In this document: one piece after another, positions 7,213 to 8,158 of the stretch | Layout: each line of letters opens with the position of its first letter | Position numbering within the stretch: position 1 is the first letter of the stretch | Source of the DNA: a virus | Lineage: Duplodnaviria; Heunggongvirae; Uroviricota; Caudoviricetes | Strand: one strand, 5' to 3' | Length of the DNA stretch: 17,902 nt | Virus record (IMG/VR): IMGVR_UViG_2778261135_000007 | Program-made: the position numbers and the translations under genes | Notes under the pieces: model-generated | Database searches by the model: none | Told to the model about the DNA's origin: nothing | What the model saw: the letters and a program-made list of their open reading frames with translations, nothing else

Positions 7213-8158
7213 ACGCCCACTGGTTATAAACACACAGCTTGCGATGAAGATTGGCTTAAATGAAGCCATTGTGTTGCAGCAGTTGCATTACTGGTTGAGA
7301 GATACCAATTCCGGCATGGAATGTGATGGTGTTCGCTGGATTTACAACACAACGGAACAATGGCTGGAACAGTTCCCATTCTGGTCAGAGTCAACGTTAA
7401 AGCGCGCGTTTGCAAGTCTGAAAACGCTGGGGCTTTTGCGTTGTGAAAAGCTCAATAAATCAAAGCGCGATATGACCAATTTCTACACGATTAACTATGG
7501 GAGCGAGCTTTTAGATGATGGCAAATTGAGCGAATCCATCGGTTCAAAATGCGCCGCTCCATCAGGTCAAAATGACACGATGGAAGAGGTCAAAATGAAA
7601 CGCTCCATTGGTTCAAAACGACCCAATGTCATCGGGTCAAAATGGCCCGATGATCCTACAGAGAATACAACAGAGATTACTACAGAGAATAAAAACACTT
7701 TTCGTCCGGAAGCTTCGCAACCGGACCCGCAGACGGCTGAACAGGATTTTTTAATCCGGCACCCTGGCGCAGTTGTGTTTAGTGCGAAAAAACGCCAGTG
7801 GGGTAGCCAGGAGGATCTGGCGTGTGCGCAGTGGATATGGGGGCGGATCGTGGGTCTCTACGAACAGGCCGCCAGTGATGATGGCGAGATCATGCGACCA
7901 AAAGAGCCTAACTGGACTGTCTGGGCCAATGATGTGCGCACAATGCGGATGCTGGATGGCAGAAGCCACAGACAAATTTGCGAAATGTTTGGTCGGGTAC
8001 AGCGGGATCCATTCTGGGTAAAAAACATCATGAGCCCGTCAAAACTCCGCGAAAAATGGGACGAACTGGTCATCCGCCTGGGACGTTCACCTGTACAGCG
8101 TTGTGTGAATCATATTTCTGAACCGGATACAGAAATTCCGCCTGGTTTCAGAGGATAA
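7193..8158 (+). CDS. Replication initiation protein, lambda O-like (replisome organiser)
   Basis: C-terminal region (QWGSQEDLACAQWIWGRIV...PNWTVWANDVRTMRMLDGRSHRQICEMFGRVQRDPFWVKNIMSPSKLREKWDEL) aligns by eye with the lambda O C-terminal domain (KWGTAEDLTAAEWMFDMV...FAGWANDIRLMRERDGRNHRDMCVLFRWACQDNFWSGNVLSPAKLRDKWTQL). An iteron array lies inside the gene, as in lambda O. The track ORF starts at 7139; 7193 is the likelier start after the upstream gene's stop at 7212. Confidence 0.85.
   Translation: MSLLFAERPLVINTQLAMKIGLNEAIVLQQLHYWLRDTNSGMECDGVRWIYNTTEQWLEQFPFWSESTLKRAFASLKTLGLLRCEKLNKSKRDMTNFYTINYGSELLDDGKLSESIGSKCAAPSGQNDTMEEVKMKRSIGSKRPNVIGSKWPDDPTENTTEITTENKNTFRPEASQPDPQTAEQDFLIRHPGAVVFSAKKRQWGSQEDLACAQWIWGRIVGLYEQAASDDGEIMRPKEPNWTVWANDVRTMRMLDGRSHRQICEMFGRVQRDPFWVKNIMSPSKLREKWDELVIRLGRSPVQRCVNHISEPDTEIPPGFRG
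7535..7700. repeat. Putative phage replication origin: five iterons with about 23-bp periodicity plus adjacent A/T-rich tract
   Basis: Five direct repeats with core GGT(T)CAAAA(T/C)G begin at about 7541, 7565, 7588, 7610 and 7634. They are followed by an A/T-rich segment with three ACAGAGA(A/T)TA repeats (7655-7700). The whole array lies inside the O-like ORF. Confidence 0.7.

What the first reader, a model, noticed from the sequence alone, without database searches (positions are those of the whole stretch)
7535..7700. Iteron-type replication origin embedded in the O-like gene
Five direct repeats with core GGT(T)CAAAA(T/C)G recur at about 23-bp spacing (starts near 7541, 7565, 7588, 7610, 7634). 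An A/T-rich tract with three ACAGAGA(A/T)TA repeats follows. This is the lambda ori architecture (iterons plus A/T-rich unwinding element inside O), suggesting the prophage keeps a potentially functional origin, unlike the degraded K-12 Qin as I remember it.
Basis: partly seen in the sequence, partly recalled or inferred. Interest (0 to 1): 0.55.

Follow-up and report, generated by a model that had tools for sequence, protein, structure and literature searches.

The report
Lambda-type replication origin inside initiator gene
The repeats are real and are almost certainly the replication origin of a lambda-like prophage, built into its own initiator gene. This is an ordinary kind of element, but the short repeat next to it is conserved in related phage origins from E. 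coli to Staphylococcus and appears to be undescribed.

Summary
Five 23-nt direct repeats (7537-7652; spacing 23, 23, 23, 24) are each an imperfect palindrome around GGTCAAAATG. A weaker sixth copy lies at 7514-7536. Three 12-nt units ACAGAGAnTAC follow at 7658-7693. No shuffle of the gene gives more than 2 copies.

The array lies in the linker-coding part of a 321-aa initiator gene (7193-8158). Its C-domain is homologous to lambda O (34% identity, E 3e-27). Its N-domain is a different, widespread winged-helix family with no Pfam model.

Comparative data support origin function:
- The iteron stretch shows no codon periodicity.
- The base flanking the iteron core co-varies with residue 67 at the start of the predicted recognition helix.
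- The 12-nt units are nearly invariant at third codon positions, are read in different frames in different lineages, and sit 18-21 nt from the last iteron in 66 of 78 loci found by protein alone.
- Lambda and P22 have ACAAAAGAC units at the same place, and the lambda ori- mutations ti12, r95 and r96 map there.

K-12 Qin lacks this segment. Isolated phages carry a gene and repeat region about 97% identical (five iteron cores identical in HannyBb).

Verdict: a new member of a known kind (lambda-type ori). The conserved unit and a DnaT-like C-terminal tail in place of a P gene are the interesting extras.

The parts
6416..6444 (+). Promoter-like site upstream of the dicC/cro-like gene. It is the likely source of rightward transcription that expresses the initiator and reads through the origin (context, inferred).
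   Evidence: It is the only sigma-70-like match in 5900-8700. It lies between the dicA-like repressor gene (5986-6393, -) and the dicC/Cro-like gene (6477-6707, +).
7193..8158 (+). O-like replication initiator gene (321 aa from the ATG; an upstream in-frame TTG at 7139 would give 339 aa).
   Evidence: PHROG 391 'replication initiation O-like', E 3.5e-92. The same start is annotated in phage HannyBb. There is no Pfam or NCBIfam family hit.
7193..7528 (+). N-terminal winged-helix DNA-binding domain (residues 1-112), the presumed iteron reader.
   Evidence: AlphaFold2 model with pLDDT 84 and winged-helix topology. The best solved neighbours are plasmid RepA iteron-binding N-domains 4pql/4pt7/5kbj, with a weak match (E 2e-3, TM 0.55). 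Residue 67 co-varies with iteron class.
7514..7536 (+). Iteron 0, a degenerate copy (GATGATGGCAAATTGAGCGAATC).
   Evidence: Member of family D2. The equivalent copy is a good iteron in mEp460_4F5 and the Klebsiella phages.
7537..7559 (+). Iteron 1.
7560..7582 (+). Iteron 2 (8 of 10 dyad symmetry).
7583..7605 (+). Iteron 3.
7606..7628 (+). Iteron 4.
   Evidence: (also inverted repeat I9)
7630..7652 (+). Iteron 5, the best palindrome (CATCGGGTCAAAATGGCCCGATG).
   Evidence: (inverted repeat I4, 91% complementary)
7658..7693 (+). Three 12-nt units ACAGAGAnTACn. This is the proposed sequence-specific DNA-unwinding element. The top strand is A-rich and the bottom strand T-rich.
   Evidence: Repeats and low stability. 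The unit is conserved across phyla at a fixed distance from the last iteron. Third codon positions are nearly invariant. The unit is read in different frames in different lineages. Lambda ti12, r95 and r96 map to the equivalent units.
7704..7726 (+). Inverted repeat GTCCGG-11 nt-CCGGAC to the right of the units. It occupies the position of the lambda ori palindrome.
   Evidence: Read from the sequence. The segment stays conserved in relatives whose C-domains are unrelated (alignment A1). The lambda-type palindrome is seen at the same place in L138, L142 and L183.
7631..8074 (+). Region homologous to lambda O residues 135-270 (linker plus C-terminal domain).
   Evidence: BLASTP 34% identity, E 3e-27.
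8096..8155 (+). C-terminal 20 residues (QRCVNHISEPDTEIPPGFRG) resembling the C-terminus of host DnaT. Candidate host-primosome or helicase recruitment motif (inferred).
   Evidence: 14 of 20 identical to E. coli DnaT residues 160-179, E 1e-9. Weak hits to DnaT structures and the DnaT family model. The same tail is present on unrelated C-domains in relatives.

Best explanation
This is the replication origin of a Qin-like lambdoid prophage, built into the initiator gene as in lambda and P22.

Proposed mechanism:
1. When the DicA-like repressor is lifted, rightward transcription from the dicC promoter produces the initiator.
2. Dimers of its N-terminal winged-helix domain bind the five or six dyad-symmetric 23-bp iterons at 7514-7652 and form a wrapped nucleoprotein complex.
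3. That complex opens the adjacent block of three 12-nt ACAGAGAnTAC units (7658-7693). The block acts as a sequence-specific unwinding element, not merely an AT-rich tract.
4. The lambda-O-like C-domain and the DnaT-like C-terminal tail then bring in the host helicase machinery, because the phage encodes no P, DnaC or DnaB homologue next to the gene.

Shown here: the repeat anatomy, the homology, DNA-level conservation, initiator-iteron co-variation and low duplex stability. Inferred: binding, opening, helicase recruitment and activity in this particular strain.
For: Anatomy and significance:
- It exceeds every one of 300 shuffles.

Initiator identity:
- PHROG 391, E 3.5e-92.
- C-domain 34% identical to lambda O, E 3e-27.
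- N-domain modelled as a winged helix, closest to plasmid RepA iteron-binding domains.

Same order of elements as the annotated origins of lambda and P22: iterons, then repeated ACA(A)AAGAC units, then a palindrome.

Module boundary: DNA homology to the Klebsiella phages stops just after the origin. The N-domain plus origin is joined to at least two unrelated C-domain families.

Unbiased set: 80 loci were found by N-domain protein alone, in Enterobacterales, Pseudomonas, Thiothrix, Staphylococcus, Limosilactobacillus and others.
- 66 of 78 distinct loci have an iteron array followed at 18-21 nt by 2-5 units.
- CAGAGA is 37-fold enriched in that position.

Entropy by codon position:
- N-domain: 0.52 / 0.32 / 1.30.
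- Iterons: 1.16 / 1.08 / 1.22.
- Units: 0.10 / 0.50 / 0.14.

The same unit DNA is read in two or three reading frames, with spacings of 9-14 nt.

The base 5' of the CAAA core co-varies with residue 67 at the start of helix 3:
- T with Ser: 55 of 61.
- G with Asp: 17 of 17.
- A with Lys/Arg: 10 of 12.

Iterons and units are lost together in a Bacillus/Neobacillus subgroup.

Lambda genetics:
- ti12 (39122 C>A) hits position 2 of the first unit.
- r95 and r96 delete units.
- All are ori- alleles whose O proteins still complement in trans (PMC6022878; mapped).
- ti12 and r99 also lower O binding and O-induced S1 sensitivity (PMC4488673).

Likely activity: the gene is 96.7-97.5% identical in three phage records, and the five iteron cores are identical in HannyBb.
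Against: - There is no experimental evidence for this element: no replication, binding or opening data.
- The N-domain has no detectable sequence similarity to the lambda O or P22 gp18 N-domains. The match to solved iteron-binding domains is weak (TM 0.55).
- No helicase-loader gene follows the initiator, so the recruitment step is conjecture.
- The co-variation is confounded by shared ancestry.
- The loci were selected by the unit sequence itself. Only searches are free of that bias, and required the first unit to be present.
- The first iteron copy in this allele is degenerate.
- Whether this prophage is inducible is not known.
Confidence: 0.85

Rival explanations
1. The repeats are initiator-binding sites, but they serve regulation rather than initiation (autoregulation of the gene, titration or handcuffing of the initiator, or exclusion of related phages). 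The true start site lies elsewhere.
For: Iteron arrays in plasmids also act in copy control. Ectopic copies of the lambda ori titrate O (PMC4488673). The co-variation with the winged helix shows binding specificity, not initiation.
Against: The array is always paired with the unit block at a fixed 18-21 nt distance, and that block is the least stable duplex segment of the gene. The same arrangement is the genetically defined origin in lambda and the origin annotated by similarity in the P22 record. No other comparable repeat array exists in the window.
Confidence: 0.06
2. The architecture is that of an origin, but in this strain it is a silent relic of a defective prophage and does not fire.
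For: The window is syntenic with the cryptic Qin prophage of K-12. Many E. coli prophages of this type are defective. The first iteron copy is degenerate in this allele.
Against: The initiator ORF is intact. Gene and repeat region are about 97% identical to those of phage records HannyBb, mEp460_ev081 and PhiR42_1, and the five iteron cores are identical in HannyBb. The same allele at 99% identity or more is present in 362 complete E. coli genomes, and the gene at 80% coverage or more in 1759. An integrase, repressor, lysis-region ORFs and hok/sok are present in the window. This rival concerns activity in one strain, not what the element is.
Confidence: 0.07
3. The periodicity only reflects a repetitive, low-complexity peptide linker (SIGSK... 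and TENTTEITTEN) with no function at the DNA level.
For: The repeats are translated, and the units are in the same frame in most loci (188 of 197 units). The peptide 'IPEITTEITTE' recurs in distant relatives.
Against: Each 23-nt repeat is a DNA palindrome, which a peptide repeat does not need. The iteron stretch shows no codon periodicity. The units are most conserved at third codon positions. The same unit DNA is translated as IPE... in 52 arrays and as TNTRDY... in 25. Paenalcaligenes has three units at 11-nt spacing, so all three frames are used. Lambda in-frame deletions here abolish ori but not O function.
Confidence: 0.02

Closest known systems
Bacteriophage lambda ori (four iterons, about 40-bp AT-rich region and palindrome inside gene O)
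   Same: - The origin is embedded in the linker-coding middle of the initiator gene.
- The iterons are dyad-symmetric with a shared central TCAAAAYG.
- An A-rich, low-stability block with repeated ACA..AGA units lies immediately 3' of the last iteron.
- An inverted repeat follows.
[quoted passage not shown]
- No DnaA boxes are present.
   Different: - There are five or six iterons of 23 bp instead of four of 18-19 bp.
- The N-terminal DNA-binding domain is a different family (no PF04492 hit, no BLASTP similarity).
- The units are regular 12-mers (ACAGAGAnTAC x3) rather than ACAAAAGA at irregular spacing.
- No P gene follows. The initiator instead ends in a DnaT-like tail.
Phage P22 ori in gene 18
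   Same: Iterons lie inside the initiator gene and are followed by tandem ACAAAAGACAATA units and a palindrome. The feature is annotated rep_origin in the P22 record.
   Different: P22 gp18 shows no detectable sequence similarity to this protein. P22 encodes its own DnaB-type helicase (gene 12) next to it.
RepA_N-type plasmid initiators (pSK41/pTZ2162 RepA; PDB 4pql, 4pt7, 5kbj)
   Same: They are the closest solved structures to the predicted N-domain: a winged helix that binds iterons as a dimer. From my own knowledge, RepA_N plasmids also carry their iterons inside the rep coding sequence.
   Different: The structural match is weak (E 2e-3, TM about 0.55, 16% identity). They are plasmid rather than phage proteins, and have different C-terminal domains and host-factor partners.
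Repeat-containing DNA-unwinding elements (oriC 13-mers, RK2 oriV 13-mers, DnaA-trios)
   Same: Tandem short repeats lie next to the initiator-binding sites, in the least stable part of the origin, with one T-rich strand. In those systems point mutations in the repeats block initiation, and initiators bind one strand of the opened element (review PMC10797057).
   Different: The unit sequence (ACAGAGAnTAC) and the 12-nt period differ. Here the element is translated. Single-strand binding by this initiator has not been tested.

Membership tests
Lambda-type phage origin (ori inside the initiator gene) | An array of at least four direct repeats, each with internal dyad symmetry, spaced about two helical turns apart, within the initiator coding sequence. 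| tested here: met
   Five copies plus one weak copy of 23 nt at 7514-7652 inside ORF 7193-8158. The family exceeds all 300 shuffles.
Lambda-type phage origin (ori inside the initiator gene) | An AT-rich, easily melted region directly to the 3' side of the last iteron, with a purine-rich coding strand. | tested here: met
   GC 32% and AT skew +0.47 at 7650-7699. It holds the least stable 40-mer of the gene, and the top strand is 64% purine.
Lambda-type phage origin (ori inside the initiator gene) | Cis-acting DNA function that is separable from the encoded peptide. | tested here: met
   This is indirect, comparative evidence. There is no codon periodicity in the iterons, third codon positions are invariant in the units, and the units are read in several frames. 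The direct genetic proof exists only for lambda.
Lambda-type phage origin (ori inside the initiator gene) | The initiator binds the iterons. | not testable with these tools
   There is only indirect support: co-variation of residue 67 with the base flanking the iteron core, and a winged-helix model.
Lambda-type phage origin (ori inside the initiator gene) | The element supports autonomous replication when the initiator is supplied. | not testable with these tools
   This needs a plasmid replication assay.
Lambda O / P replication module | An initiator C-terminal domain homologous to lambda O. | tested here: met
   34% identity over 148 residues, E 3e-27.
Lambda O / P replication module | An initiator N-terminal domain of the Phage_rep_O family (PF04492). 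| tested here: not met
   No Pfam hit at E 0.01 or below for the full protein. At E up to 10 the N-domain gives only weak generic winged-helix hits. BLASTP shows no N-terminal similarity to lambda O.
Lambda O / P replication module | A P-like helicase-loader gene immediately downstream. | tested here: not met
   The next gene (8199-8603) is DUF977 / 'Ren-like exclusion protein'. No P, DnaC or DnaB family hit was found in the next four ORFs, or in the annotated relatives.
PHROG 391 'replication initiation O-like' | A full-length match to the family profile. | tested here: met
   E 3.5e-92, residues 35-339 against profile positions 11-298 of 298.
RepA_N-like winged-helix iteron binders | Fold similarity of the DNA-binding domain. 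| tested here: inconclusive
   These are the top Foldseek hits (4pql, 4pt7, 5kbj) but at only E 2e-3 and TM 0.55. Generic winged-helix regulators score nearly as well.
Sequence-specific DUE repeats (oriC / RK2 13-mer type) | Tandem repeats in the unwinding region whose sequence, not only base composition, is required. | tested here: inconclusive
   The unit has strong sequence conservation across phyla: 1.1-2.0 bits at 10 of 12 positions. The lambda ti12 C>A change raises AT content yet impairs ori. The requirement has not been tested for this element.

The most novel reading that the evidence does not exclude
The 12-nt unit (A)CAGAGAnTAC may be a previously unrecognised, sequence-specific origin-opening element shared by a very large superfamily of phage and prophage initiators, from Proteobacteria to Bacillota. 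It keeps a fixed position next to iterons whose sequence changes freely. It would be the counterpart of the lambda and P22 ACAAAAGAC units where the classic ori- mutation ti12 maps. If so, the 'AT-rich region' of lambdoid origins is a conserved recognition site, for the initiator (perhaps on the T-rich strand after melting) or for a universal host factor. It would not be a passive easily melted tract. These loader-less initiators would then plug into the host primosome through a DnaT-mimicking tail.
Probability: 0.45. Interest if true: 0.65.

Novelty: new member of a known kind. Interest (0 to 1): 0.45.

Why it matters
- **Annotation.** The gene is present at 80% coverage or more in 1759 of 5426 complete E. 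coli genomes, and RefSeq calls it 'hypothetical protein'. Its N-domain has no Pfam or NCBIfam model. Recognising it as an initiator with a built-in origin gives a correct annotation for a very common prophage module. It also gives a simple signature for finding phage origins across phyla: iterons with a CAAAWTG core, followed by CAGAGAnTAC units.

- **Old lambda puzzle.** The conserved unit gives a comparative explanation for why ti12, a C>A change that makes the AT-rich region even more AT-rich, damages ori. It offers a compact, mutable target for testing sequence-specific origin opening.

- **Helicase recruitment.** The DnaT-like tail suggests a testable route by which loader-less phage initiators recruit host helicase.

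Tried and rejected
- **Pfam and NCBIfam** on the initiator gave no family. Pfam at E up to 10 on the N-domain alignment gave only weak generic winged-helix hits.
- **The search for homologous proteins** with the N-domain returned almost only short fragments, so it could not be used to ask whether homologues carry the units. I replaced it with a protein-seeded scan of species-representative genomes.
- **Rfam** found no RNA family in 6300-8800 at E up to 1.
- **Internal promoter.** No promoter-like site lies inside the origin.
- **Host-factor sites.** DnaA boxes are not enriched (44 found, 44.1 expected) and none lies inside 7514-7730. There is no IHF consensus in the window.
- **Literature.** Searches for the exact 12-mers, and for CAGAGA together with iterons, found nothing relevant. 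The Weigel and Seitz review of phage replication modules is not in the library, so I cannot exclude that this origin type is mentioned there.
- **Primase idea.** I considered that the units are primase start sites, because the bottom strand reads TCTCTG and contains the E. coli DnaG CTG trinucleotide. I set this aside because the motif is equally conserved in Staphylococcus and other Bacillota, whose primases prefer other trinucleotides (my own recollection, not tested).
- **DnaT tail.** I looked for what the tail contacts in the preprimosome structure paper. The text does not say which DnaT residues are involved.
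Full report
**1. Observation**

The core G[GT]TCAAAA[TC]G occurs at 7542, 7565, 7588, 7611 and 7635, and nowhere else in the 17.9-kb window on either strand. The repeat finder groups the copies into one family of five 23-nt units at 7537-7652, with spacing 23, 23, 23, 24. TRF reports period 23.

With the same criterion (23-nt copies, at least 65% identity, spacing 23 +/- 1), this is the largest family in the whole window. 300 dinucleotide-preserving shuffles of the gene gave at most two copies.

Each unit is also an imperfect palindrome. The last one, CATCGGGTCAAAATGGCCCGATG, has 91% complementary arms. A sixth, degenerate copy precedes the array at 7514-7536 and is a good copy in relatives.

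Five bases after the last repeat come three 12-nt units: ACAGAGAATACA, ACAGAGATTACT and ACAGAGAATAAA (7658-7693). This stretch has 32% GC and a strong A excess on the + strand. It contains the least stable 40-mer of the gene.

An inverted repeat follows: GTCCGG, 11 nt, CCGGAC, at 7704-7726.

**2. The host gene and its setting**

The array lies in ORF 7193-8158. An in-frame TTG at 7139 would extend the ORF, but phage HannyBb annotates the ATG. Upstream are three genes:
- a DicA-like repressor (5986-6393, - strand);
- a DicC/Cro-like gene (6477-6707);
- a YdaT/CII-like gene (6691-7212).

Downstream is a DUF977 / 'Ren-like' gene.

The protein matches PHROG 391 'replication initiation O-like' at E 3.5e-92. 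It has no Pfam or NCBIfam family. From residue 147 on, it is 34% identical to lambda O residues 135-270 (E 3e-27). The N-terminal 112 residues show no similarity to lambda O or to P22 gp18.

An AlphaFold2 model of the N-domain (pLDDT 84) has winged-helix topology. Its best solved neighbours are the iteron-binding N-domains of staphylococcal plasmid RepA proteins (4pql, 4pt7, and 5kbj in complex with DNA). The match is weak, with E 2e-3 and TM about 0.55.

The repeats therefore sit exactly in the linker between a DNA-binding domain and a lambda-O-like C-domain. In lambda, the origin sits in the same place.

**3. Where the window comes from**

The window is syntenic with the Qin prophage of E. 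coli K-12. K-12 matches it at 98% up to 6970 and again from 10481, but has other DNA (relBE, flxA and others) in place of 6971-10480.

The gene is common. It is present at 80% coverage or more in 1759 of 5426 complete E. coli genomes, where RefSeq calls it 'hypothetical protein'. It is 96.7-97.5% identical in the phage records HannyBb, mEp460_ev081 and PhiR42_1. In HannyBb the five iteron cores are identical. This makes a working origin likely.

**4. Comparative evidence that the repeats act as DNA**

*Module boundary.* DNA similarity to the Klebsiella phages covers the N-domain and the repeats and stops right after the 12-nt units. Across 126 loci the N-domain plus repeats is joined to at least two unrelated C-domain families. 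That is the modular pattern expected of an origin-recognition cassette.

*An unbiased sample.* I scanned one genome per species with an N-domain protein alignment only. The 80 loci come from Enterobacterales, Pseudomonas, Acinetobacter, Comamonas, Thiothrix, Staphylococcus, Limosilactobacillus, Bacillus and relatives, Thermomicrobiales and others.
- 66 of the 78 distinct loci have an array of about 23-nt dyad repeats with a CAAAWTG-like core. It is followed by 2-5 units containing CAGAGA.
- The distance from the last iteron core to the first unit is 18-21 nt.
- The hexamer is 37-fold enriched in that position: 7.7 per kb against 0.21 per kb elsewhere in the same loci.

*Codon-position entropy.* I used 26 distinct enterobacterial sequences with the same layout.
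- N-domain: 0.52 / 0.32 / 1.30, the normal coding signature.
- Iterons: 1.16 / 1.08 / 1.22, with no codon periodicity.
- Units: 0.10 / 0.50 / 0.14, so third positions are almost invariant.

*Reading frame.* The unit DNA is kept when the reading frame changes.
- In the Gram-positive form CAATACCAGAGAnTAC, the first unit is translated as ..IPE.. in 52 arrays and as ..TNTRDY.. in 25.
- Spacings of 9, 11, 12, 13 and 14 nt occur.
- Paenalcaligenes has three units at 11-nt spacing, one in each frame.

*Joint loss.* A Bacillus/Neobacillus subgroup lacks both iterons and units inside the gene. In one of those loci, a unit array with one iteron-like dyad lies in non-coding DNA about 200 nt upstream of the gene. 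This is a single case and is only suggestive.

*Co-variation.* The base just 5' of the CAAA core tracks residue 67, the first turn of the predicted third helix:
- T with Ser: 55 of 61.
- G with Asp: 17 of 17.
- A with Lys/Arg: 10 of 12.

The next-best columns are residues 79 and 83, in the wing. This fits direct readout by a winged helix, but shared ancestry inflates such associations.

**5. Link to lambda and P22**

The annotated lambda origin has four iterons and then ACACAAAAGACACTATTACAAAAGAAAAAAG.... The P22 rep_origin has four iterons and then ACAAAAGACAATAT ACAAAAGACAATAA. Some relatives of the present family have ACAAAGACTAC in place of ACAGAGACTAC. The units therefore look like versions of one element.

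Published lambda mutations map onto it:
- ti12 is 39122 C>A, the C at position 2 of the first unit, four bases after iteron 4.
- r95 deletes 39123-39134 and r96 deletes 39139-39153.
- All are ori- alleles whose O proteins still complement in trans (PMC6022878; coordinates checked).

Position 2 of the unit is C in 216 of 219 units in the unbiased set, although CAGAGA was the search key there. ti12 and r99 reduce lambda growth at least 10-fold. They lower O binding to 49% and 35%, in step with lower S1 sensitivity (PMC4488673). A C>A change raises AT content, so its defect argues for sequence recognition rather than simple ease of melting.

Sequence-specific repeats in unwinding elements, and strand-specific binding by initiators, are established for oriC, RK2 and F (review PMC10797057).

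**6. How it most likely works**

Shown here:
- the anatomy of the repeats;
- the homology of the C-domain to lambda O;
- DNA-level constraint on the iterons and units;
- co-variation between initiator and iteron;
- low duplex stability of the unit block;
- absence of DnaA-box enrichment and of an IHF consensus.

Inferred:
- Dimers of the N-domain occupy the five or six iterons.
- The resulting complex opens the unit block.
- The only promoter-like site nearby (6416-6444) supplies both the initiator and transcription through the origin, as pR does in lambda.

The helicase step is the weakest part of the model. No P, DnaC or DnaB homologue is encoded nearby. The last 20 residues are 70% identical to the C-terminus of E. 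coli DnaT (E 1e-9). The same ..IPxGFRG tail is attached to unrelated C-domains in relatives. This suggests a short host-binding motif. Its partner is not known, and the recent preprimosome paper does not resolve it.

**7. Rivals**

- *Purely peptide-level repeat.* This is excluded for practical purposes by the palindromic units, the entropy pattern, the frame changes and the lambda genetics.
- *Binding array used only for regulation.* This cannot be excluded without origin mapping. It is unlikely, given the constant pairing with the unit block and the lambda and P22 precedents.
- *Silent in this strain.* This remains possible but does not change what the element is.

**8. Novelty and score**

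An iteron origin inside an O-like gene of a lambdoid prophage is what a specialist would expect, so the finding itself is a new member of a known kind. I found no description of this origin family or of the CAGAGAnTAC unit in the searchable literature. An important review is not held in the library.

Two things raise the interest somewhat. The first is the conservation of the unit across phyla next to freely changing iterons, with its correspondence to the lambda ti12 site. The second is the DnaT-like tail in place of a loader gene.

Overall interest is 0.45. Confidence that this is a lambda-type origin is 0.85.

Noticed in passing
window 8096-8155: The initiator ends in QRCVNHISEPDTEIPPGFRG, which is 14 of 20 identical to the C-terminus of E. 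coli DnaT (residues 160-179). The same ..IPxGFRG tail is found on unrelated C-domains of related initiators. Several other phage 'protein O' genes share just this 63-nt 3' end at 90-97% identity. It looks like a mobile short host-binding motif.
   Followed up: partly
window 6970/6971 and 10480/10481: These are the breakpoints of similarity to K-12 Qin. K-12 carries ydfW-flxA-ydfV-relBE in place of the 3.5-kb segment that holds the end of the ydaT-like gene, the initiator with its origin, the DUF977 gene and four further ORFs.
   Followed up: yes
L127 (Veillonella parvula MAG), L128 (Bacillota MAG), L193 (Collinsella MAG): Contigs assigned to Gram-positive or anaerobic MAGs carry this Escherichia-type module, with an N-domain 100% identical to the window's. 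They are most likely mis-binned Escherichia prophage contigs and not a sign of host range.
   Followed up: no
L127:2966-3030, compared with window 7658-7693: A near-identical allele has four 12-nt units instead of three. Copy number ranges from 2 to 5 across relatives, so the unit array expands and contracts, probably by slippage.
   Followed up: partly
L205:2225-2320 (Neobacillus kokaensis): In a subgroup whose initiator genes lack in-gene iterons and units, one locus has AATACCAGAGATTAC-ACATAGATTTCT-TCAGAGATTTAC with an iteron-like dyad ATCAAAATGAT. It lies in apparently non-coding DNA about 200 nt upstream of the gene. This is a single case.
   Followed up: partly
L242, L254, L246, L211, L222: A more distant initiator subfamily has an N-domain that starts ..IKEELVELTGDFKLAIVL.. 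and quite different iterons (for example GGGCGAAAAAGAAAA). It carries the same CAGAGAnTAC unit array after its iterons.
   Followed up: partly
window 7193-7528 (protein level): The N-domain family is 45-60% identical between phages of E. coli, Pseudomonas, Staphylococcus, Bacillus and Listeria. Yet it has no Pfam or NCBIfam model, and RefSeq names the E. coli gene 'hypothetical protein'.
   Followed up: partly
window 4775-4826 (-), 10326-10500 (+), 13795-14187 (+), 16697-17082 (+): Rfam matches at gathering score: DicF sRNA, the sok antitoxin RNA of a hok/sok locus, and two cspA-type thermoregulator leaders. These are consistent with a Qin-like prophage.
   Followed up: no
window 7139-7212: The ydaT/CII-like gene (6691-7212) overlaps the start of the initiator gene by 20 nt if the ATG at 7193 is used, or by 74 nt if the TTG at 7139 is used. 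This suggests translational coupling.
   Followed up: no
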